Assembly (NCBI GenBank): GCA_000092065.1
Contig: CP000597.1
Length of the DNA: 64,000 nucleotides
Source of the DNA: Ostreococcus lucimarinus
Taxonomy: Eukaryota
Strand: one strand, 5' to 3'
The position numbers were made by a program, and so were the translations under genes. The notes beneath the pieces are model-generated. The model saw nothing but the letters and a program-made list of their open reading frames with translations. It did no database searches and was not told where the DNA came from. Below, piece by piece: positions 1 through 47,667 of this stretch. The first letter of the stretch is position 1. Each line of letters opens with the position of its first letter.

Positions 1-661
1 CGGATGCGCGTCGCCTCGAGCGGGCACAAGAAGACGTCGGCGATGAACTCGGCCACCGCGGCGGAGCCGAGGTAGATGGTGTTACGGTTATTCCACGCCT
101 CCCGTTCGGTCATGCTTTGCGCGGCGTTGATCTTGAAGTATTCAACACCACCGAACTTGAACCAACCTTGGATAAAATAACCCACCGCCGTCGGACCGAG
201 ACCGGTGAGCAAAGCCCCGGCGCCTTCCTCGGCAATCACCTTGGAGAAGCCAGACACCATACCGCCGTACTTGGACGGATCCAATTGCATGCGCGTCTGT
301 ACCGATATAAAATTAAATCACGCTCGTCAGTCGATATTCGCACCGCACGCGACGTCGCGCGCGCGTCCGTCGTCGTCGACGCCCCGTCGAGCGCTCGCTC
401 GCTCGTCGATTCATCCATCGCGGTTCGCGCGCGCGCCTCCGAGCGCACCTTGACCACATCCACCGGCGTCACCGCCCCGTGCGTGAACCCACAGCAGATC
501 CCGCCCGAGAGCGCTCCCCGAAGGTAATAATCCAGCGTGTACTCCTTCTTCGACGCCGCCGCGAACGCCGGATTCGCGTTTCGTTCCTTCAGCGCGCCCA
601 GCGTCGCCGTCGGCGCGTACAGGCTCGCCGGCGTCGCCCGCTTGATGAATTCTTGAAGCAT
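1..661 (-). CDS. Mitochondrial phosphate carrier (SLC25A3/PiC-like), 5' part of gene. Two exons, 449..661 and 1..296, separated by a 152-nt intron. The gene continues past the window start.
   Basis: Exon 1 (ORF 236..661 minus) gives ...YYLRGALSGGICCGFTHGAVTPVDVVK, the PiC TM1 signature. A different frame of the reverse complement of 1..296 gives TRMQLDPSKYGGMVSGFSKVIAEEGAGALLTGLGPTAVGYFIQGWFKFGGVEYFKINAA...AVAEFIADVFLCPLEATRIR, which continues the human PiC alignment (CRMQVDPQKY...). The frame switch is bridged by GT(gcgc)...(ac)AG. Confidence 0.8.
297..448 (-). other. Spliceosomal intron (GT...AG, phase 0) in the phosphate carrier gene.
   Basis: Donor GTGCGC lies immediately after codon K (449..451). 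Acceptor ACAG precedes ACG CGC ATG CAA TTG (T R M Q L). Splicing restores the conserved PiC sequence across the junction. Confidence 0.75.
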
Positions 662-1060
662 CTGCGTCGTCGCGCCGTCCGAACGTTCGCGCGCGCGTCA
701 GTCGCTCCGCGCGCGCGTAAGATGCGCGCGATCTATCGGGACACCGCGCGCGCGCGATCGCGTCGCTCGCGTCGCGCCCTCGCGCCGCGCGCGCGCGTCG
801 CGCGCGTCGATCGCGCGCGCGTCGTCGCGTCGCCCTCGCGCGCGCGCGCCGCGTCGAAACGCGCACCGTGATGGTTCGTCGAGGAGTGTCGCGCGCGCCG
901 CGCGTCGTCGCCGCCGTCGTCGACCGCGTCCGCGTCGCCTCGCGAACGACGCGCCGAGGTTCAAATCGTCGCGTCGATCGACGGCGCGAGGTTCGAGGCG
1001 CGACCGGCGAACCCGGACCGACCGACGGACCGACCGACGCGCGCGGCAGACGCGCGCGCG

Positions 1061-4652: not shown

Positions 4653-5192
4653 CTACTTCGCGTTCGGGTTGGCGGCCAAATAACTCACCGCCTCCGGAAT
4701 CGACTGTATCTTATCCGCCTCCGCGTCCGGGATCTCCACCGCGAATTCCTCCTCCATCGCCATGACCACCTCCACGGTGTCCAACGAATCCAGCCCGAGA
4801 TCGCCCGCGAACGCCGACGTCGCCGTCACCTTGCTCGCGTCCACCTTTGCGAAGTTCTTCACCACGCTCACCACGCGCGCCGTGACTTCGTCCTCGTTCA
4901 AAAATCCCGCGCCGTACGCCCGGCACGCGCTCTGCGTCGTCGCGCGCCCCGCGTTTCCATCGTCAGTCTCGACGCGTAGGGTTGATCGATCGTCCATCGT
5001 TCGCGCGCGCGTCTTCGCCGTCGCGCGCGTCGCTCGGCGCGCGCGTCGCCGTCGGCGCGCACCGCGATCGTTTGAGGCGCGCGTCGCCCGCCTCGAAGCG
5101 CGTCGCGCCACGCGCGGTTCGTGAGCTGTCGTCGAAACATGATGATCGCGTCGCGATGTGCCGCCGCGATCGCGTCGAAGCGCGCCGCGCAT
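4653..5192 (-). CDS. Mitochondrial acyl carrier protein (ACP), with a presequence.
   Basis: C-terminal ...KVTATSAFAGDLGLDSLDTVEVVMAMEEEFAVEIPDAEADKIQSIPEAVSYLAANP carries the canonical phosphopantetheine-attachment DSL motif and the ACP helix pattern. The N-terminus is R-rich and presequence-like. An alternative ATG lies at 4997. Confidence 0.8.
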   Translation of the reverse strand: MRGALRRDRGGTSRRDHHVSTTAHEPRVARRASRRATRASNDRGARRRRRARRATRATAKTRARTMDDRSTLRVETDDGNAGRATTQSACRAYGAGFLNEDEVTARVVSVVKNFAKVDASKVTATSAFAGDLGLDSLDTVEVVMAMEEEFAVEIPDAEADKIQSIPEAVSYLAANPNAK

Positions 5193-14113: not shown

Positions 14114-15760
14114 TTAGACGACACCCATCTTGGAGAGAAGCTTTTTTGATTCCGCGGCGTAGTTGACCGGGTTACACTTGACCGCCGTCATGCGACGCTT
14201 GCTTTCGCCTTGGTATTCCTCGGTGACGACCTTGACGAGGAAGGACCAGTGCTGGCACGTCATCTTCTTCACCGCACGTTCGTACGCCGCGAAGTCGTTT
14301 TCCTTCAACTCGTGCATTTCGTTCGCCGTCATGCCGAACATCTTCGTCGCTTCTTCGTTGAACGCGTTCAACCACGCGCCTTCGGAGCTATCCTGCGCCT
14401 TGAATCGCATAATATAACGGCGTTCGCAAGTGTCGTAGGTTTGCCCGTTCGCTTCGCAGTACCATTTACCATCGCTTTCGATCACCTTCTTGTTGTTTCC
14501 TTCTTCGGGTGTGGCGGTGTAGTACATGGTTTGATCTGGCTTGCACATGACGGTGTGCGCGCACACCCACGCAAACGTCGGCTTGTCGGTCACCGGGGCG
14601 ATTTCCTCCGGCTGGAGCTCGGCGAGGTTACTCGCCATAATTTCGCTCTTTTGACCTTGCTGCGCGCTGGTGAGACCTTCGCCCGCGGCCGTGGTTTCGG
14701 CGCTGGAGCCGCCCTCAGACCACCACTTTTTGATTTCGACGGCGCGCGGCACGTCCTCCGGATCGATGACGATGTCAGAGCGGGAGACGGTGCCGATGGA
14801 GACGCCTTCGTAATCACCGACGCGAACAGAACGAATAGCCACCACCGGGTTGGTCATCGACGCCAACTGTTCGCCGACTTCGACGGCGAGCGCGTTCCAA
14901 AGAGTCAACCTGACGGTTTTCGCCGAGTCGTCGACCAAGACGACTTCGCGCTTGTTCAACTCGGTGTTGTCGCTCTTGCGGCGAATGGACGACAGTTCGC
15001 TGACTTCCTTGACCACGGCGACGACGTCGACGTTGCCACGCGCACCAATCTTGCTCGCGAGCTTGTTGATGGGCACGAAGGCGTACGCGCGTTGCATCTT
15101 TTGCGCGCTCGACTGATCGATGTCGTTGCAGACGTCGATTTCGCACTTGCCGTCGAGGTTCATCTCGTAATCGTTACCCGAAGTCGAGTATCGCTTATCC
15201 GCCGGTTTGAGAGAACCCTTGGAGACGTAGTAAACCTTGCCGACTTCCAAAACTGAGTCGTACTTTTCAATCGCTTCGCGCCAGAGCGTCGCGCCGATGG
15301 CGGTACCCTCCTCGTCGACAAAGTCGACCGAGCAAACCTTACCCGGACCACGCGCGCTCTTGTACTCGCGCACGTTCCCCTTGTTCGTCAACTTCACCTT
15401 GACCGTCCACGGCGTGCGGTACGGGTTAAGCGCCGCGAGCGGCACCGCCGCGCGTTCCGCGCTCGCCGGCGTCTTCGGCTCCGTCTTCGCCGCCTTCGCC
15501 GCGGGCGTCGTCACCTTCTCCTTCACATCCGCGTCGACGACTTCGAACCCGTTGATCACCGCGAACGGTTTACGCTCAACGCCATCCGTTTCGAACGCCA
15601 CGTCCGTGAGCTTCAACACCGCGTTCTCCTTCACCGCGCCGCTCGACAGCTTCTCCCCGCACGTCGCCGCGAACTTCGCCGCGATGGTGTTCTCCCCGTC
15701 GTTCAGCGTCGCACTGCACCGCCCGAAATCCACGTCATCACCGTCAGTCAAACGAACCAT
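14114..15760 (-). CDS. RPA1: Replication protein A 70-kDa subunit (RPA1).
   Basis: N-terminal domain MVRLTDG...NAVLKLTDVAFETDG...FAVINGFEVV. Consecutive OB folds. C-terminal DBD-C with a zinc ribbon (WYCEANGQTYDTCERRYIMRFKAQDSSEGAWLNAFNEEATKMFG). Start chosen at MVRLTDG (15760). The ORF extends to 15838. Confidence 0.8.
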   Translation of the reverse strand: MVRLTDGDDVDFGRCSATLNDGENTIAAKFAATCGEKLSSGAVKENAVLKLTDVAFETDGVERKPFAVINGFEVVDADVKEKVTTPAAKAAKTEPKTPASAERAAVPLAALNPYRTPWTVKVKLTNKGNVREYKSARGPGKVCSVDFVDEEGTAIGATLWREAIEKYDSVLEVGKVYYVSKGSLKPADKRYSTSGNDYEMNLDGKCEIDVCNDIDQSSAQKMQRAYAFVPINKLASKIGARGNVDVVAVVKEVSELSSIRRKSDNTELNKREVVLVDDSAKTVRLTLWNALAVEVGEQLASMTNPVVAIRSVRVGDYEGVSIGTVSRSDIVIDPEDVPRAVEIKKWWSEGGSSAETTAAGEGLTSAQQGQKSEIMASNLAELQPEEIAPVTDKPTFAWVCAHTVMCKPDQTMYYTATPEEGNNKKVIESDGKWYCEANGQTYDTCERRYIMRFKAQDSSEGAWLNAFNEEATKMFGMTANEMHELKENDFAAYERAVKKMTCQHWSFLVKVVTEEYQGESKRRMTAVKCNPVNYAAESKKLLSKMGVV

Positions 15761-16042
15761 CCCCGCGCGCGCCCACGCCTCGCCTCGCGTCCCCCCCGCG
15801 CCCGCCCACGCGCGTCGCCCGCTCGATCGCTCATTCAAAACTTGAATTTAAATTCAAACTTCCAACGACCGTCCCCGCGTTCCGCGATCATCGCGTCGCG
15901 CGCGCACCTGTACGCCTCATCCGCGCTCTTAAAGTCGAGCACCTGCGCGCGATAAAACTCCACCCATCAGTCCGCGCCCTCGTCGTCGCCCCCCTCGATC
16001 GCGCGCGTCGTCGCGCTCGTCGCGACGCGCGCGCGCGTTTGA

Positions 16043-17506
<1,464 letters not shown>

Positions 17507-20322: not shown

Positions 20323-21249
20323 TTACAAAGTGGAGGCGACGTGCGCCACGAGGTACAGAAACGCGTCCGCATGCCGCAGCGCCTCGTACGTTTGCTCTAA
20401 ATCAAAATCTAACCCAACCTCGACGCCTTGCGCGAGCACGATTTCAACGGCGTCTACGTCCACACCGAATGCGCGCAACGCGTCCCCCACCGTCGTCCCT
20501 CGCCGCTCAACGCTCGCCGGCGCGCTCGCGAACGTCGCGTTCGCGAAATCGTCGCCTCGCGTCTCGTACACTCGCACGGGCACCACCGCTCGCTTCCTCC
20601 CCTCTCGCACCGCGTCCCCTACTTTCTCCGCCCTGCGCAGCGTGTCTGCGTCCCCGCGCACCACCGCGTCCCACATCGCATCCGCGTCCTCGCTCGACAT
20701 CGTCATCGCCCTCGCCGCGCTCGCCCGCGTGGCGTACGTCGCCTCCTTCAACCCGTTGAAAAACGCGTGTCGACACTCCCGCTCCATTCGCCCCCAACCG
20801 TCGTCCGCCGCGGCGTCCGATGCGTCCAATCGCTCTCTCCCGTTCACCGCGCGCAGCGCGACGCCGTAGACGTCGTCCGAGCGACGTCTCGCGCCGTCCG
20901 CGCACGTCCCGACCGCCGTCCCGAGCGCCAACGCCCGACCGTCGCCCTCGCCGCCGTCCCATCGCGCCTCGAGCGCGTCGAAGTCCTCGGTCACGCGCAA
21001 GAGTTTCGTCAGCGCGCTTCGCGCGCGCGCCGTGGCGAGAAACGCGCCGAGCGGCGCGCAGCGCGGCGCGCGAACGAGCGTGGACTCGCCATCGTGGGAC
21101 AATCGAATCGTCACCTGCGCGGCGCGCGCGACGCGCGTCGACCGTCGTCAGTCGCGGCGCGAGCTCGAGCGAGGGTCGCGCGACGCGCCGGCGCGATCGA
21201 GCGGACGTACGGCGCCCGACAGCGCGTCCACGCGGTCTTGGAGCGTCAT
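20323..21249 (-). CDS. ATG5: Autophagy protein ATG5. Two exons, 21211..21249 and 20323..21114, separated by a 96-nt intron.
   Basis: Exon 2 aligns to human ATG5 over the helical and C-terminal UblB regions (HAFFNGLKEA...; RAVVPVRVYE vs RYIPFRIYQ; EIVLAQGVEVGLDFDLEQTYEALRHADAFLYLV vs [33 protein letters not shown]). The ORF track's M at 21114 is actually GTG. The upstream ATG at 21249 and the downstream GTACGT donor restore the N-terminal RVDALSGAVTIRLSHDGE (compare RDVWFGRIPTCFTLYQDE). Confidence 0.7.
21115..21210 (-). other. Spliceosomal intron (GTACGT...CAG, phase 0) in ATG5.
   Basis: Consensus-like donor GTACGT after codon A (21211). Acceptor CAG lies immediately before GTG ACG ATT CGA (VTIR). 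Confidence 0.6.
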
Positions 21250-31083: not shown

Positions 31084-31204
31084 ATCGCCCGCTCGCGAAC
31101 TGTAATAGTGCCACAGATTTCTGATTTCTTTCCTCTTTCACGAAATTTCTAATGTCATCGCGTGTTCGATTCGATCGCGCGTCGTTTTCGTGCGCGTTAA
31201 CGTC

Positions 31205-31606
31205 CTATTGATCATCTGCGGCCGACGCGGGCGCGGGCGTGGCGTTCGTCATGTTGTCCACTCGCGTGCGAAACGCGCCTCGTCCGATCGCAAAGCGCCG
31301 TGGCGTCCAGCGCAAGACGTTGGTATCGCCCGGAGCGTCCAAAATGTCGTCGATTCCGTTCGACGCGTCCTCGATGACGTGTCGAAGTGTGCGATGCAGC
31401 CCATCTTCGACGCTGATTTCGTCCAGAACGGCTCGTTCGGCGTCGGTCAACTTCGTCAGTCGGTCGCGCACTGCCTCGGCATGGTCTGGTTTGGTCAACA
31501 GGGCGTTCTCGCGACGGCGCCGGGCCTCGCCAGCTTCCCACGCCATGGCGAGGTCCACGGGATCGCCGTCATCGACGTAGGCATCGTAAGCGTCGGTTTG
31601 CTCCAT
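31205..31606 (-). CDS. Hypothetical small acidic protein.
   Basis: 133-aa ORF with balanced, non-R/A composition (D, E, L, T, W). The opposite-strand ORF 31190..31699 is R/G-rich junk. No recognised domain. Confidence 0.35.
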   Translation of the reverse strand: MEQTDAYDAYVDDGDPVDLAMAWEAGEARRRRENALLTKPDHAEAVRDRLTKLTDAERAVLDEISVEDGLHRTLRHVIEDASNGIDDILDAPGDTNVLRWTPRRFAIGRGAFRTRVDNMTNATPAPASAADDQ

Positions 31607-31717
31607 GTCGAGTCGATCGAGGCGTCGAGGTGTGTGGGCGCCGAGGAGGCGAGACGAGAAGGCGACAACGCGCGGCTACGTGTAGTATTCGTTGGCTAAG
31701 GTCGCCCGGGCGGGCCT

Positions 31718-33976: not shown

Positions 33977-34886
33977 GGGACGCGCGCGCGCGTCGCCGTC
34001 CGTCGCGCGCGCGCATCCCTCGACGCGCGCGACGACGGCCGACGCCCGACGCGCGCGCGCGCGTCGCTTGACGGAAACGACCGCGCCGACGGAAACGACG
34101 CTTCGTTCGAATTCAAACGCGCACGCGCGCCGCGCGCGCGCGACGTCGAGATTTTTCCTCGAGTGCGGACCCGCGGCGCGAAAAAAGCGCGACGCGCGGG
34201 AACCGCGGCGAAAAAGATTAATTTCCGCGTCAGCACCCGCGGCGACCCCGCGCGCGCGGCGCGCGCCCGCGATCGCGACGTTTTTCGTATATAGATGCAT
34301 CACGGGGTTCAATGCGTACACGCGCGTGGGTAAATATGTCGACACGCGTGTCGCCGCGATCGCGGGCGCGCGCCGCGCGGCGAAAATTTATCGCATTTAT
34401 CGCTCGCGCGCGGAGTCACGACTCGCCGACGCGCGAATCCCGCGAAATCCCGCGCGGGGGTGGATAATATCTTCCCGTAGTGCGTCGCGTCGATCGCCCA
34501 TGAGGGCTGTGAAAAAAACCCGCGCGCGAGATTTCGATTTTCACGAACGGTTCATGGTGTTCGTGCGCGCGCGAATGCGTGATCGCCGCGCGTCCGGCGT
34601 GGGTTCGGACGTTCGGGCGATACGAACGGACGTCCGGCGCGTGGCCCGGAGACGACGCCCGACGCGCGCGTGCGCCCGGCGCGCGTTACGCGGGGCGCGC
34701 GCGCGCGGCCGCACACGCGCGCGCACGCCGGGCGCACGCGAGCGACGCGCGCGGTTCGCGGTCGATCGATTCGAACGTCGCTCGATCGATCGACGCGCGC
34801 GCGAGACGCCGACCCGCGACGCCGACCCGACCCGCGACGTCGTTGTTAACGTCGCCGCGATCGATCGGCGTCGCGCGACGCGGGCG

Positions 34887-36379
34887 ATGATGGCGACGCC
34901 GCGCGAGCTCGACGCGCCGAGCGCGGGCTCGCCCGCGCGCGACGACGGCGCGAAAGATTTTCGTCGAACCGAATCCGTCGACGGCGAGGCCATCGCGCGC
35001 GAGCGCGCGCACTCGTTCAGCACGCAGTGCTCGTCGCAGACGACGATCGCGGACTTGGGCCAGGGGCGCGACGACGACGACGACCGCGTCGAGGACGAAC
35101 GCGTCGCGTTCGACGTCGCGCGCGATCGCGACGCGCGCGCGATCGACGAACGGGCGGAGAGAGAAACGCGCGATGCGATGGTAGCGCTCGCGCGCGCGCG
35201 CGCGGACGCGATCGGGCCGGACGGCGCGGATTTATGCGCCGACGTCGCGCGCGAGCTCCTGCGGCGCGAGCGCGCGGATCACGGGGCGTTCGTGTTGGAC
35301 GGCGCGACGGCGCATCACGCGGCGTACCGGGCGCAGTTGGTGGAGTGGATTTTGGACGTGTGCGCGGGGGAGCGGTACGGGCCGACGACGGCGGACGTCG
35401 CGATCGGATACATGGTGCGTGGACGATGCGATGCGACGCGATCAACTGTCTCGCCTCCTGGCTGGCTGATTCCGGGGGAGGGGGCCAGGGGCGATCTTGA
35501 TCTTATCTTCGCCGCGACCGACCGCGATGTTCGGACGAACGGCGAAAAAAATAAAACGTCGGAAACGATTCGAAACGCACGAACGCGCGCGATGGGGACG
35601 ATGGCGAACGATTGAACGAACGACTGACGACGAACGCGGACGCGACGAATGCGCAGGATCGAGTGTTGTCGAAAACCGTGGTGCCGAAGACGTCTTTACA
35701 TCTCGTCGCGCTGTGCTGCTTGCAGATTGCGGTGAAATACGAAGAGATTGAGGAACGTGTGCCGACGATGGCGAAACTTCGCGCGTGGACGTCGAACATG
35801 TACTCGCCGGATATCATTCAAAAGATGGAGTTGGCGGTGTTGATCGAGCTCAAATGGGAGCTCGGCATTCTGACGCCGGCGCACTTTTTGGAATCTTTCT
35901 TGACCATGATGAACGGTGGGACGACGAGCGAGGACGAAGTGGACGTCGGTGTGTGGACGCCGCAGTATCAAGAGGAGTTGAGACATTTGGTGTGTCAAAT
36001 GTACTCGTTGTGCGTGCAAGACGTGAGCTTGGCCAACGAGCTGCCGTCGCGCGTCGCCGCCGCCGTCATCGCAGCGTCGAGGTTGAACTTGGGCATCAAG
36101 CCCTTGTGTCCACCGACGCTCCGAGTTGCGGCGAACGTGACACCGCAGCAAATCTATCCTCTCGTGACGCACATGCACAGAATGTGGGAAGAAGCGTACG
36201 AAGACGACGAGACGACGATGATGGAAGCCGACGTCAAGGCCCACGCGGATTTCAACTCGCTCGCCATCGCCATTCCGCAACAAGAAGGTGTGGTGTATGC
36301 CGATAAACCCGGGTTCGAGCAGCGCATCACTGAAAACGCATCGCCGACGTGTCCGTTGGATATGCAGTGGGACGAATGA
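34887..36379 (+). CDS. Cyclin (A/B/D-type cyclin box). Two exons, 34887..35414 and 35657..36379. Start is uncertain.
   Basis: Exon 1 ends ...YRAQLVEWILDVCAGERYGPTTADVAIGYM (cyclin-box helix 1-2). Exon 2 begins DRVLSKTVVPKTSLHLVALCCLQIAVKYEEIEERVPTMAKLRAWTSNMYSPDIIQKMELAVLIELKWELGILTPAHFLESF (helices 3-5, KYEEI motif). The ORF track splits the gene into ORFs 34068..35615 and 35612..36379. Confidence 0.7.
35415..35656 (+). other. Spliceosomal intron (GTGCGT...GCGCAG, phase 0) in the cyclin gene.
   Basis: Donor GTGCGT lies directly after ATG (M, 35412-35414). Acceptor ...aatgcgcag|GAT CGA GTG TTG (DRVL). Splicing joins ...AIGYM to DRVLSK..., reconstituting a continuous cyclin box. Confidence 0.7.
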
Positions 36380-36770: not shown

Positions 36771-37769
36771 TTAACATCGCATGCCTTCCTCGGTGACCGT
36801 GTACGCGCCTCCGTGGCGGCGCACCGGTACGTCCCACGTCGCTACGCCCGCGTACTCACCGTATCCAACGCGTTTGTTCGACGGCGCCAACAAGACGCGC
36901 TGCGTCACCGCGTTCGTCCACTCCACGGGTAAGAAATCCTTGTACTGCCCACCCCGTCGACCATCGTTCGACGACAACGTCGTCTTTGTCACCACAACCG
37001 CCGCCCTATGCGCGCTCGCTAGGCGCTTGAACAATCTCGCCGCGGCGGAAAACACGCGCTGAATGTTAAACGGCGCCCCGTGGTCCTTCCTCGATGCTCG
37101 ATCGAGCCAGTAAAACGCCGCCACGTTGTCACAAATCACCAACCGCTGCGACGCGAATTTCGCCATCTCACCGCTTTTGGCACCGTTCGTACCTCCACCC
37201 TCTGCGTCCTCCCCCGTCTCCCTCGTCTCCGCCGTCTCCGCGTCCACGAACAGTCCGTCTCTTTTCGCGCTCTCGATCGCTCCGCTCCACGCCGCGTCCA
37301 GCGCCGTCAGCGTCTTCAACGCGTCCACCATCCCGTGCGCCCTCACCAGCGTGAATCTCGACATCGATTCCTCGTACACCTCATCTCGCATCGTCACTCG
37401 CTGATTCTCTCGCACGTTCGCCAGCTTTTCCTCAATCTTTCGATTCAGCGCTCGCAGCAGCCGCAGTTGGTCAAACTTTCCATCGCAATCGATGACGATC
37501 ACCCGCGCCTCGCTCCCGTCGTACCGCACCCCGTCCCGCGCTCGCGGCAGCACGGCGTGCGCGGCGATCTCGGTGACGAACTCCGTCTTCCCCGACCCCG
37601 GCGCGCCGACGATCTCGACGATCTCTCCCGCGCGAAGCGCCGGTTCGGGGTCGCGCGCGTCGACGAACGGAATCCCGCTCCGCAGCGGCTCTCGCAGCGC
37701 GCGGTCGAGGTACGCGCGCGCCGTCTCGCTCGGCGCGAGGAACGCGAGCGTTTCTTCCAGCGTGTTCAT
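36771..37769 (-). CDS. RAD51 paralog (RecA/RAD51-family ATPase; XRCC2/XRCC3/RAD51C/D-like). Alternative start at 37871.
   Basis: Walker A EIVGAPGSGKTEFV. ...RVIVIDCDGKFD... . A hydrophobic Walker B-like LVICDNVAAFYW. Short protein (~330 aa) typical of RAD51 paralogs. Confidence 0.55.
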   Translation of the reverse strand: MNTLEETLAFLAPSETARAYLDRALREPLRSGIPFVDARDPEPALRAGEIVEIVGAPGSGKTEFVTEIAAHAVLPRARDGVRYDGSEARVIVIDCDGKFDQLRLLRALNRKIEEKLANVRENQRVTMRDEVYEESMSRFTLVRAHGMVDALKTLTALDAAWSGAIESAKRDGLFVDAETAETRETGEDAEGGGTNGAKSGEMAKFASQRLVICDNVAAFYWLDRASRKDHGAPFNIQRVFSAAARLFKRLASAHRAAVVVTKTTLSSNDGRRGGQYKDFLPVEWTNAVTQRVLLAPSNKRVGYGEYAGVATWDVPVRRHGGAYTVTEEGMRC

Positions 37770-37869
37770 CCGCGCGTCGCGCGCTCGCGCGACATCAACC
37801 GCGACGCGTCGACGAGTGCGACCGACTCGCGGCGTCCGCCGAACGAATCGCCATCGCGCGGCGCGCGGC

Positions 37870-41460: not shown

Positions 41461-41549
41461 GTCGGCGCTTCTACGTGCGCGCGAGCGCGTCGGACGGTGA
41501 CGTCGAGATTCATTCGTTGGGTTTCGAGCTCTCGTCCCGTCGTGCACCC

Positions 41550-41772
41550 TGGATTGGTTCTCGTCGAGTTTTCTACGTATTTACCGTGATTTAGAGCCAT
41601 GCGTGCCGAAATCGCGATTGCGTTTTGTCCAGCCTGCACACTTACGCACAAACTTAGTGCAGGGCGACTAACAGCATCGCACATAACTTAAGTTCTCGTC
41701 GAGTTTTCTACGTATTTACCGTGCTTTAGATCTATTAGTGCCGAAATCGCGAAAACCGTTTTGTCCAGCCTG
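41550..41772 (+). repeat. Interspersed repeat family A, locus 2: 1.6 tandem copies of a ~135-bp unit (about 85-90 % identical to locus 1).
   Basis: Unit 1 is 41550..41684. Partial unit 2 is 41685..41772. It shares ctcgtcgagttttctacgtatt(c/t)accgtg...gtgccgaaatcgcga...gttttgtccagcctgcacacttacgc with 27926..28132. It lies about 90 bp upstream of the HO1 ATG and about 100 bp beyond the stop of the helicase. Confidence 0.9.
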
Positions 41773-41872
41773 CACACTTACGCGTGGGTTGACGACTCTG
41801 CTCCACGACTTCGATTACACGAGTGGAGTGAGTGCGTGCGTGACTACAGAAAAACAACGCGTGGTAAATGAA

Positions 41873-46498: not shown

Positions 46499-47667
46499 AC
46501 AGCGCGCGGTTGGTTTTCACGGTCGCGTCGCCCCCGATGCGGTTTACGTGCGCTTTGAAGGGTGCTCGATGTCCGATGAAAGTGCGCGGTGTGACGATAT
46601 ATGCGATGTTCGGACAAACGGCGCGCGCGCGCCGCGATTCGACGATTCGACGATTGGACGACGGGACGCGCGCGACGCGATCGTGATGATAAGTACGCGT
46701 TCGTCGTCGGTTACAACGCGAATAAAACGCGACGCCTCGAGGCGTCGCGCGTCGACGCGGGCGCGCGACGACGACGGCGGCGCGACGAGCGCGCGCGAGC
46801 GGCGCGACGAGCGCGCCGGTCGCGATGGACGGCGAGGCGGCGCTTACATGCCGGCAGCCTTGCGCTCTTCCTCCATCTTCTTCGCGGCGGCGGCGCGACG
46901 GGCTTGGATTTCCTTCTCCTCGGCCGCGTTCTTCGCGCGAAGCTCCTCGGGAGAGAGCGTCTTCTCGTCGGAGCCTTCGTAGGCGTTCCAGTTGGACTTG
47001 CCGGCGACGGAATCCTTGAATCCGGCGCTGCGAGCGGACGACGCGACGACGACGGCGCGCGCTTCGTCAGTCTTCCGCGGTTCGAATTTTTTCGCGTCGT
47101 CGCGACGTCGTCGAACCCTCGCGCCCGTCCTCGCGCGATTTCGACGACGCCGTCCTCGTCATCCTCGTCATCCTCGTCAGCATCGTCGACGTCGCCGCGG
47201 CGTCGTCGCCGCGACGTCGACGACGAGAAAATTTCCCTCGCGACGCCCCTCGACCCGCCCTCGCGCGCGTCGCGCCGCCGTATTTCTCCCGTGCCGACGC
47301 GCGTCGCGTCGCGTTCGCCCGCGCGTCGCGCGCGCGCCCGCGCGCGCGCGCGCGCGTAACGCATAGGGGGGCCCATCGCGCGAAATCGCGCGTCGCGTCG
47401 TCGCGGCGTCCCGCGTCGCGCGACCTCGCGTCGCGTCGCGCGTCGCTCGAGACGCACCGCGCGGAGACGTTGCGCTTGAATTGCGCCGGCGCGTTCGCGC
47501 GAACGGCCGCGGAGGAGGTGACGAGGGCAAACATCGTGTCGGAGCGCGTGCGTGTGTGTCGCGCGGGGTCGACGCGCGCGCGCTGGATAAGGATAAACCC
47601 TTGTATTTTTTCGCGAAAATCGGGTATGTTCGTCGCGTTTTCGGGTGACGGGCGTCGGTTACGCGTA

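What the first reader, a model, noticed from the sequence alone, without database searches (positions are those of the whole stretch)
297..448. ORF track mis-models spliced genes: three introns recovered by protein-level reasoning
(i) The phosphate carrier is split at ...PVDVVK|TRMQLDP by a 152-nt intron. (ii) ATG5 is missing its first 13 codons in the track; the listed start is a GTG, and a 96-nt intron with a GTACGT donor links an upstream ATG. (iii) The cyclin box is split between two listed ORFs and is joined by a 242-nt intron. All introns are phase 0 with GT...AG ends. Further short introns may be hidden in genes whose N-termini look wrong (the EXECUTER-like, JMJD6, CDA-like and RlmL-like genes).
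Basis: partly seen in the sequence, partly recalled or inferred. Interest (0 to 1): 0.5.

Follow-up and report, generated by a model that had tools for sequence, protein, structure and literature searches.

The report
Ordinary introns in an Ostreococcus genome

Summary
All three claimed introns are in the sequence at the stated coordinates. They are PiC 448..297 (-, 152 nt), ATG5 21210..21115 (-, 96 nt) and cyclin 35415..35656 (+, 242 nt). All are GT..AG and phase 0.

Removing them restores the mitochondrial-carrier signature PVDVVK|TRMQ, a conserved 13-codon ATG5 first exon, and the cyclin-box motif GYM|DRVLSK. Orthologues in related marine genomes carry an intron at the same three sites. In those orthologues the exons are conserved and the intron interiors are scrambled.

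The annotated O. tauri Cyclin-D gene has a 253-nt phase-0 intron at the identical codon boundary. All three introns carry the published Ostreococcus consensus: 5' splice site GTGCGTG-like, branch GACTGACG 29-33 nt before the AG.

The introns are not introner repeats, not structured RNAs and not assembly errors.

I found four more supported introns:
- one in the mitochondrial ACP gene
- two in RPA70, flanking a 35-nt micro-exon
- one 430-nt phase-2 intron in a small 86-aa protein gene

A fifth, in the PiC 5'UTR, is probable.

Verdict: correct observation, correct interpretation, routine eukaryotic gene structure, low novelty.

The parts
1..296 (-). Mitochondrial phosphate carrier (PiC/SLC25A3-like), coding exon 2. 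It starts TRMQLDP and runs off the left end of the window.
   Evidence: Identical metagenome ORFs P0035/P0040 (P0054 is 99% identical) begin at MQLDP, just inside this exon.
297..448 (-). PiC intron: 152 nt, phase 0. Donor GTGCGCT, branch GACTGACGA 30 nt before the 3' end, acceptor TACAG.
   Evidence: Spliced Mito_carr scores 72.4 bits against 20.6 unspliced. Homologues are contiguous over PVDVVK|TRMQLDP. The same site carries an intron in relative L002/L003; flanking exons are 83% identical with no gaps, the intron 60% with 22 gap openings. Fold z-score -0.31; no Rfam match.
449..661 (-). PiC coding exon 1: ATG at 661, 71 codons, ends PVDVVK.
662..866 (-). Probable PiC 5'UTR intron: 205 nt, GTGCGCG...GACTGACGC...36 nt...CGCAG, ending immediately before the start ATG.
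   Evidence: Relative L002 keeps GACTGACGA followed by CACAG one base before its ATG, although the surrounding sequence has diverged. The donor could not be seen in a relative.
20323..21114 (-). ATG5 exon 2. It begins GTG ACG ATT = VTI (the track's 'GTG start') and includes the stop codon.
   Evidence: Pfam ATG5_HBR and ATG5_UblB match.
21115..21210 (-). ATG5 intron: 96 nt, phase 0. Donor GTACGTC, branch GACTGACGA 33 nt before the end, acceptor CGCAG. An in-frame TGA lies inside the branch motif.
   Evidence: An intron at the same site is seen in L004 (85% aa), L005 (56%), L027 (52%) and L026 (47%), each with ACTGACG and CAG|GTG.
21211..21249 (-). ATG5 exon 1: 13 codons, MTLQDRVDALSGA.
   Evidence: The peptide core RVD[AV][LS]xx is conserved in four relatives: MTLQDRVDVLSGV, MGAERRVDVLAGE, MNSADARVDASAGA, MPTVSIEDRVDVLASK.
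34887..35414 (+). Cyclin-D-like exon 1 (ATG 34887 or 34890), ends ...TTADVAIGYM.
35415..35656 (+). Cyclin intron: 242 nt, phase 0. Donor GTGCGTG, branch GACTGACGA 29 nt before the end, acceptor CGCAG.
   Evidence: Spliced Cyclin_N scores 87.8 bits over profile positions 21-126; exon 2 alone gives 62 bits and exon 1 alone gives nothing. The O. tauri annotated gene has a 253-nt intron at AIAYT|DRVLSK. The same site carries an intron in L011 and in sister strains L007/L009.
35657..36379 (+). Cyclin exon 2. It starts DRVLSKTVVPKTSLHL... and includes the stop codon.
4932..5062 (-). Additional intron (not in the finding): mitochondrial acyl carrier protein, 131 nt, phase 0, GTGCGCG...GACTGACGA...CGCAG. 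Exon 1 is 5140..5063 (26 codons); exon 2 is 4931..4653.
   Evidence: Relatives L016, L021 and L024 keep a 26-codon exon 1, the donor and the branch, with very different intron interiors. The upstream ATG of the unspliced 179-aa ORF is not conserved.
15943..16103 (-). Additional intron: RPA70 intron 1, 161 nt if the donor is GTGCAG at 16103, or 155 nt if the donor is GCGCGTG at 16097. Branch GACTGATGG, acceptor CGCAG. Exon 1 starts at ATG 16184.
15908..15942 (-). RPA70 35-nt micro-exon (VLDFKSADEAY + 2 nt).
   Evidence: Conserved in L015, L016 and L024, with mostly third-position changes and conserved flanking CAG| and |GTGCG.
15714..15907 (-). Additional intron: RPA70 intron 2, 194 nt, phase 2, GTGCGCG...GACTGACGG...TGCAG. 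Exon 3 is 15713..14114.
   Evidence: After splicing, the Pfam Rep-A_N match extends from profile positions 39-99 to 1-99 (16.3 to 21.9 bits).
47028..47457 (-). Additional intron: small 86-aa protein gene, 430 nt, phase 2, GTGCGTC...GACTGACGA...39 nt...CGCAG. Exon 1 is 47534..47458; exon 2 is 47027..46844.
   Evidence: Exon 2's frame has no upstream ATG. The 87-aa homologue P0182 (70% identical) is contiguous over NVSAR|AGF.

Best explanation
The window is nuclear DNA of an Ostreococcus-like picoalga (Mamiellophyceae). The three features are ordinary U2-type GT-AG spliceosomal introns of the 'intron-poor' class described for Ostreococcus outside chromosome 2.

The inferred mechanism follows the standard model and was not measured here. 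The pre-mRNA is recognised through an unusually strict 5' splice site (GTGCGTG-like) and a strict branch sequence (GACTGACG). A YAG acceptor lies about 24-39 nt further on. Lariat splicing removes 152, 96 and 242 nt and joins the exons in phase 0.

Splicing restores three things:
- the carrier signature Px[DE]xx[KR]x[RK] of the phosphate carrier
- the true Met-initiated N-terminus of ATG5
- an intact cyclin box

A bacterial-code ORF list cannot represent this. It therefore shows split ORFs and false GTG/TTG starts.
For: Sequence: exact GT..AG boundaries and phases.

Domain continuity:
- Mito_carr 72.4 bits spliced against 20.6 unspliced.
- Cyclin_N 87.8 bits over profile 21-126 spliced; exon 2 alone gives 62 bits, exon 1 alone gives nothing.

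Homologue continuity:
- PiC homologues, including the MERC-sourced P0003, read TPVDVVKTRMQLDP without a gap.
- O. tauri, Micromonas and the MMETSP-sourced P0156 cyclins read Y[MT]DRVLSK without a gap.

Annotated orthologue: the O. tauri Cyclin-D gene (CAID01000018.2) is 1378 nt for 374 aa. Its single 253-nt phase-0 intron lies at AIAYT|DRVLSK and reads GTGCGT..GACTGACG..TAG. The surrounding gene order is syntenic with the window.

Comparative pattern, flanking-exon identity against intron identity:
- PiC vs L002: 83% with 0 gaps, against 60% with 22 gap openings.
- ATG5 vs L004: 85-86% against 75%.
- Cyclin vs L007: 98-99% against 83%.
- Cyclin vs L011: 77-80% against 49%.
- Cyclin vs O. tauri: 84-88% against 53%.

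The ATG5 intron site and exon-1 peptide are conserved in four further lineages.

Signals: all three introns have GACTGACGA 29-33 nt before the AG. The window holds only 16 ACTGA[CT] sites.

Literature (PMC2483917): O. lucimarinus non-chromosome-2 introns have 5' splice site GTGCGTG; 87% contain ACTGAC and 66.5% contain GACTGACG.

Intron frequency: six of about 40 genes here contain an intron. 16-20% is reported for O. lucimarinus (PMC2367439).
Against: - No RNA from this organism was available, so splicing itself is inferred.
- ATG5 exon 1 is too short and the N-terminal domain too diverged for Pfam (no UblA hit) or PDB sequence search to see it. Its support is purely comparative.
- The species was not identified beyond 'Ostreococcus-like, not O. 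tauri'.
- The sister-strain contigs L001 and L007-L009 come from assemblies with frameshift errors (P0054), so single-base indels in them are weak evidence.
Confidence: 0.95

Rival explanations
1. The ORF breaks are assembly or sequencing errors, or the genes are pseudogenes, rather than introns.
For: Some related long-read-style contigs do carry frameshift errors (L001 product P0054).
Against: The interruptions are 96-242 nt long and have no counterpart in orthologous proteins. The ATG5 exon 2 and ACP domain read at 99.6-100% in the independent assembly L013, the ACP exon-1/intron stretch is near-identical there, and L013 and L014 match the window at the RPA70 donor. Introns occur at the same sites in several species, with conserved splice signals. 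Flanking exons change mostly at third codon positions. O. tauri annotates the same cyclin intron.
Confidence: 0.01
2. The introns are introner elements, meaning recently inserted, transposon-like repeated introns as in Micromonas pusilla.
For: Related Mamiellophyceae (Micromonas) carry introner families (PMC4540971, listed). Intron lengths of 100-250 nt are in a similar range.
Against: No intron resembles another intron or any other place in the window beyond GC-rich low complexity. The best hits are 67-75% identity over under 100 nt, or about 20-nt runs. The positions are shared with relatives as distant as O. tauri and with a 47%-identity ATG5 lineage, so the introns are old.
Confidence: 0.02
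3. Introns exist, but with different boundaries or starts than the reader proposed. For example, ATG5 might start at an internal ATG with no intron, or alternative nearby GT/AG sites might be used.
For: Many GTGCGC and AG strings occur nearby, and a permissive scan gives 299 frame-compatible combinations. The first in-frame ATG of ATG5 exon 2 lies at the Met of GWGRMERECRH.
Against: Only the proposed boundaries give gap-free alignment to orthologues. Only they coincide with the conserved donor, branch and acceptor in relatives. An internal ATG5 start would delete more than 100 conserved residues.
Confidence: 0.03

Closest known systems
Ostreococcus lucimarinus 'non-chromosome-2' spliceosomal introns (Irimia & Roy 2008, PMC2483917)
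   Same: Same atypical strict 5' splice site (GTGCGTG-like) and same extended branch motif GACTGACG at a short distance from the 3' splice site. Introns are about 100-250 nt long in a very compact, intron-poor genome where roughly 15-20% of genes have introns.
   Different: A different Ostreococcus-like lineage; the proteins are not those of O. tauri. One donor is GTACGT rather than GTGCGT. Here the signals were read from 8 introns, not from a genome-wide set.
Annotated intron of the Ostreococcus tauri Cyclin-D gene (GCA_000214015.2, CAID01000018.2; protein P0136)
   Same: Same codon boundary (Y[MT]|DRVLSK), same phase 0, GTGCGT donor and GACTGACG branch. Neighbouring gene order is syntenic.
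   Different: 253 nt against 242 nt; TAG against CAG acceptor; interior only about 53% alignable.
Micromonas introner elements (Simmons et al. 2015, PMC4540971)
   Same: Short introns in a Mamiellophyceae genome.
   Different: Introners are multi-copy families of near-identical sequence and are lineage-specific. These introns are unique in sequence and shared in position across species.

Membership tests
U2-type spliceosomal intron, Ostreococcus intron-poor class | GT...AG termini | tested here: met
   GTGCGC..CAG, GTACGT..CAG and GTGCGT..CAG.
U2-type spliceosomal intron, Ostreococcus intron-poor class | Strict 5' splice site resembling GTGCGTG | tested here: met
   GTGCGCT, GTACGTC and GTGCGTG. 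The consensus is from PMC2483917.
U2-type spliceosomal intron, Ostreococcus intron-poor class | Branch motif ACTGAC / GACTGACG a few tens of nt upstream of the 3' splice site | tested here: met
   GACTGACGA at 30, 33 and 29 nt before the intron end. Only 16 ACTGA[CT] sites occur in the window.
U2-type spliceosomal intron, Ostreococcus intron-poor class | Removal restores an uninterrupted, homologous reading frame | tested here: met
   Pfam continuity. Gap-free alignments to orthologues across the junctions.
U2-type spliceosomal intron, Ostreococcus intron-poor class | Non-coding evolution: interior diverges faster than the exons and tolerates non-3n indels, while the position and signals are kept | tested here: met
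U2-type spliceosomal intron, Ostreococcus intron-poor class | Absent from the mature mRNA of this organism | not testable with these tools
   No RNA-seq or cDNA for this organism. The only indirect support is homologues from the MERC and MMETSP sources in related taxa (P0003, P0156), which are contiguous across the junctions.
Introner elements | Many near-identical intron copies within one genome | tested here: not met
   No intron-to-intron or intron-to-window similarity beyond low complexity. Only 64 kb plus the fetched loci could be searched.
Self-splicing group I/II introns or other structured RNA | Conserved RNA secondary structure or a covariance-model match | tested here: not met
   No Rfam family reached its gathering score in the window. 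Nothing was found within 297-448 at E<=1. The intron's fold energy is no better than shuffles, z = -0.31.
Intein or in-frame insertion | Insert is translated in frame with its host (length a multiple of 3, no stops) | tested here: not met
   152 and 242 nt are not multiples of 3. The ATG5 insert has an in-frame TGA.

The most novel reading that the evidence does not exclude
The most novel reading left open concerns a neighbouring gene, not the three introns. In this species the ancestral GT donor of RPA70 intron 1 has mutated. The window, L013 and L014 all read CAG|GCGCGTG, where three related lineages read CAG|GTGCG.

Either the spliceosome of this strict-consensus genome uses a GC-AG donor here, or splicing has shifted 6 nt upstream to GTGCAG and deleted Val-Gln from a conserved motif. 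Either outcome would be a small natural experiment on splice-site strictness in an intron-poor genome.

For the three reported introns themselves, the only unexcluded novelty is that their conservation of position reflects a regulatory role, such as intron retention controlling cyclin D or ATG5. Nothing here points to that.
Probability: 0.35. Interest if true: 0.2.

Novelty: already known. Interest (0 to 1): 0.1.

Why it matters
The value is practical, not conceptual.

Bacterial-style ORF calling on picoeukaryote DNA produces truncated or chimeric proteins. The same errors sit in public metagenome protein catalogues:
- PiC ORFs start at MQLDP.
- Cyclin ORFs read through the donor or start inside the intron.
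- One ATG5 'N-terminus', MKTDERN..., is actually the translated branch site.

In this genome the strict GTGCG...GACTGACG...YAG signature is a cheap and specific intron detector. Half of all ACTGA[CT] sites in the window mark introns (seven supported, one probable).

Nothing here changes what is known about splicing or about these gene families.

Tried and rejected
**Introner hypothesis.** BLAST of all introns against each other and against the window gave only GC-rich low-complexity hits. Rejected.

**Structured or functional RNA in the intron.** Rfam gave nothing at gathering score. A lenient search gave only a sub-threshold riboswitch-like hit outside the intron, at 681-774, E = 0.06. The fold z-score is -0.31. 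Rejected.

**Direct homology support for ATG5 exon 1.** Pfam UblA was not detected, and PDB phmmer aligns only residues 128-270. This led nowhere, so I used comparative DNA instead.

**An error of my own, corrected.** I first read P0131's contiguous N-terminus (MKTDERNANTTNQ|VALRF) as an intron-less orthologue. The DNA shows it is read-through of the intron's 3' end: ATG AAA ACT GAC GA... is the branch site. The real exon 1 lies further upstream.

**Permissive donor/branch/acceptor scan with ORF-length filters.** It returned 299 candidates. This is not discriminating, because all frames are long and open in 64% GC DNA.

**Codon-usage segmentation.** It recovered the PiC and cyclin frame switches but was too noisy for short exons.

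**Indels in L001 and L007-L009 as evidence.** I down-weighted these after seeing that L001's PiC product is frameshifted.

**GACTGACGC at 2529 in the EXECUTER-like gene.** There is no YAG 10-60 nt downstream and no consensus donor upstream. Not an intron.

**GACTGACGA at 31460.** It lies inside a strain-specific insertion. A splice from 31826 would be frame-compatible but would delete conserved C-terminal residues. Left as unexplained.

**Species identification.** Neither GC content nor the literature settled it.

Full report
**What the window is**

The window is 64% G+C and densely packed, with about 40 genes on both strands. The genes are eukaryotic and plastid-lineage in type: mitochondrial carriers, ATG5, a cyclin, RPA70, EXECUTER-like (PF12014), CPP1-like and heme oxygenase.

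The cyclin is 59-62% identical to the annotated O. tauri Cyclin-D and only 41-44% identical to the Micromonas pusilla protein. Window positions of about 25-46 kb have the same gene order as O. tauri chromosome record CAID01000018.2. The organism is therefore an Ostreococcus-like Mamiellophyceae alga, but not O. tauri. I could not name the species.

Identical or 94-95% identical contigs occur in several marine metagenomes.

**Checking the observation**

All three claims are literally true of the sequence.

*PiC (minus strand).* Exon 661..449 ends ...PVDVVK. Positions 448..297 are 152 nt, GTGCGC...TACAG. Position 296 onward reads TRMQLDP.

*ATG5 (minus strand).* The ORF list gives 20323..21114 with a GTG start. 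ATG 21249 opens 13 codons, followed by GTACGT, then 96 nt to GCGCAG|GTG. Read without splicing, the frame meets a TGA inside the segment, and the first in-frame ATG of exon 2 lies more than 100 codons in.

*Cyclin (plus strand).* ORFs 34068..35615 and 35612..36379 are joined by removing 35415..35656, which is 242 nt, GTGCGT...GCGCAG.

All three introns are phase 0.

**Protein-level tests**

Splicing PiC raises the Pfam Mito_carr score from 20.6 bits (below the cut-off) to 72.4 bits, as a single match. It also recreates the carrier signature P-x-D-x-x-K-x-R.

Splicing the cyclin gives one Cyclin_N match over profile positions 21-126 at 87.8 bits. Exon 2 alone gives 62 bits and exon 1 alone gives nothing.

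More than ten PiC homologues, including the MERC-sourced P0003, read TPVDVVKTRMQLDP without a gap. O. tauri, Micromonas and the MMETSP-sourced P0156 cyclins read Y[MT]DRVLSK without a gap.

Bacterial-style ORFs from metagenomes of the same species make the same errors as the ORF track. P0035 and P0040 (and P0054, at 99% identity) start at MQLDP. P0140 and P0147 read through the cyclin donor. P0135 starts inside the cyclin intron.

**Annotated orthologue**

The O. tauri Cyclin-D gene spans 1378 nt for a 374-aa product. The first 135 codons match up to AIAYT and the last 239 codons start at DRVLSK. The gene therefore has one 253-nt phase-0 intron at exactly the homologous boundary. That intron reads GTGCGT...GACTGACG...TAG.

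**Comparative DNA**

*PiC.* A relative with about 95% protein identity (L002/L003) has an intron at the same site. The flanking 120-nt exons are 83% identical with no gaps. The intron is 60% identical with 22 gap openings, yet keeps GTGCGC, ACTGACGA and CAG.

*ATG5.* Four further lineages each have a short first exon, then a GT[AG]CG donor, an ACTGACG branch and CAG|GTG:

| Locus | Protein identity | Exon 1 peptide |
|---|---|---|
| L004 | 85% | MTLQDRVDVLSGV |
| L005 | 56% | MGAERRVDVLAGE |
| L027 | 52% | MNSADARVDASAGA |
| L026 | 47% | MPTVSIEDRVDVLASK |

I corrected one early misreading. The contiguous N-terminus of P0131 is the translated 3' end of the intron (ATG AAA ACT GAC GA...), not an intron-less gene.

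*Cyclin.* The same site carries an intron in the sister strains L007/L009, in L011 (AIGLT|GTGCGTG...AGACTGAT...CGCAG|DRVLSK) and in O. tauri. In each comparison the interior diverges far more than the exons.

**Signals and the literature**

Each of the three introns has GACTGACGA 29-33 nt before its end. ACTGA[CT] occurs only 16 times on both strands of the window.

Irimia & Roy 2008 (PMC2483917) report that EST-confirmed O. lucimarinus introns outside chromosome 2 have the atypical 5' consensus GTGCGTG. Of those introns, 87% contain ACTGAC and 66.5% contain GACTGACG. The introns here are textbook members of that class.

**Alternatives examined**

- *Introner elements:* the introns share no sequence with each other or with the rest of the window, and their positions are ancient.
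- *Structured RNA:* no Rfam match and no unusual fold.
- *Assembly error or pseudogene:* excluded by agreement with independent assemblies (L013 over the ATG5 exon, the ACP domain and its intron; L013 and L014 at the RPA70 donor) and by conservation across species.
- *Other boundaries:* only the proposed ones give gap-free homology and coincide with the conserved signals.

**Beyond the finding**

1. *Mitochondrial ACP.* Exon 1 is 5140..5063 (26 codons). The intron is 5062..4932 (131 nt, phase 0). It is confirmed in three related lineages. The ATG of the alternative unspliced 179-aa ORF is not conserved.

2. *RPA70.* Exon 1 starts at ATG 16184. Intron 1 runs to 15943. A 35-nt micro-exon follows at 15942..15908. 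Intron 2 is 15907..15714 (194 nt, phase 2). The arrangement is conserved in relatives. After splicing, the Pfam Rep-A_N match extends to profile positions 1-99, still below the family cut-off.

3. *A small 86-aa protein.* Exon 1 is 47534..47458. The intron is 47457..47028 (430 nt, phase 2). An 87-aa homologue is contiguous across the junction.

4. *A probable PiC 5'UTR intron.* It spans 866..662 and ends at the start codon. Its branch and acceptor are conserved in L002.

Six of about 40 genes are therefore spliced, in line with the 16-20% reported for O. lucimarinus.

Each has an in-frame ATG upstream of its domain. Non-consensus introns cannot be excluded for them. The published figure is that roughly 7-13% of introns lack the branch motif.

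**Verdict**

The biology is routine and already described for the genus, and one of the three introns is annotated in a sister species. The finding is useful for correcting gene models but not surprising. The only missing piece is direct transcript evidence from this organism.

Noticed in passing
window 4932-5062 (-): The mitochondrial acyl carrier protein gene has a 131-nt phase-0 intron after a 26-codon presequence exon. The ORF track instead shows an unbroken 179-aa ORF from an upstream ATG that is not conserved in relatives.
   Followed up: yes
window 15714-16184 (-): RPA70 has two 5' introns flanking a 35-nt micro-exon. The ORF track starts the protein at MVRLTDG..., which is intron sequence containing the branch site.
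   Followed up: yes
window 16092-16109 (-): At the RPA70 intron-1 donor, this species (window, L013, L014) reads CAG|GCGCGTG where three related lineages read CAG|GTGCG. This implies either a GC-AG intron or a donor shifted 6 nt upstream to GTGCAG, which would remove Val-Gln.
   Followed up: partly
window 46844-47534 (-): A small 86-aa protein with a transit-peptide-like start (MFALVTSSAAVRANAP...) has no Pfam family but has conserved homologues. Its gene is split by a 430-nt phase-2 intron.
   Followed up: yes
window 662-866 (-): Probable 5'UTR intron of the phosphate carrier, ending exactly at the start codon. Its branch motif and CAG are conserved in relative L002.
   Followed up: partly
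window about 31185-31711: A segment of about 527 nt lies directly after the stop codon of the 615-aa gene. It is absent from the sister strain (L007/L009) and from O. tauri. It holds a 155-aa ORF (31208..31675, -) with no Pfam hit, and no clear terminal repeats. Its origin is unknown.
   Followed up: partly
window 41548-41872; L007 17019-18263: Sister-strain contigs carry an extra gene of about 1.5 kb for a Cys-loop ligand-gated channel (Neur_chan_LBD/memb), between heme oxygenase and the DEAH helicase. The window and O. tauri lack it.
   Followed up: no
whole window: CTGAC is under-represented: 65 observed against 92 +/- 9 in shuffles, and every shuffle had at least 65. This could reflect avoidance of cryptic branch sites in a genome with a strict branch consensus.
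   Followed up: no
window 37692-37784 (+): ARAGORN calls a 93-nt tRNA-Arg(TCG) antisense to the Rad51-like gene. Rfam finds no tRNA there at gathering score, so it is probably a false positive.
   Followed up: partly
L001, L007-L009 (ENA ERZ106465xx contig_N records); proteins P0035, P0054, P0121, P0126, P0131, P0135, P0140: Public metagenome protein catalogues hold truncated, frameshifted or intron-read-through versions of these algal proteins. L001's PiC product is frameshifted, which suggests indel errors in that assembly.
   Followed up: partly
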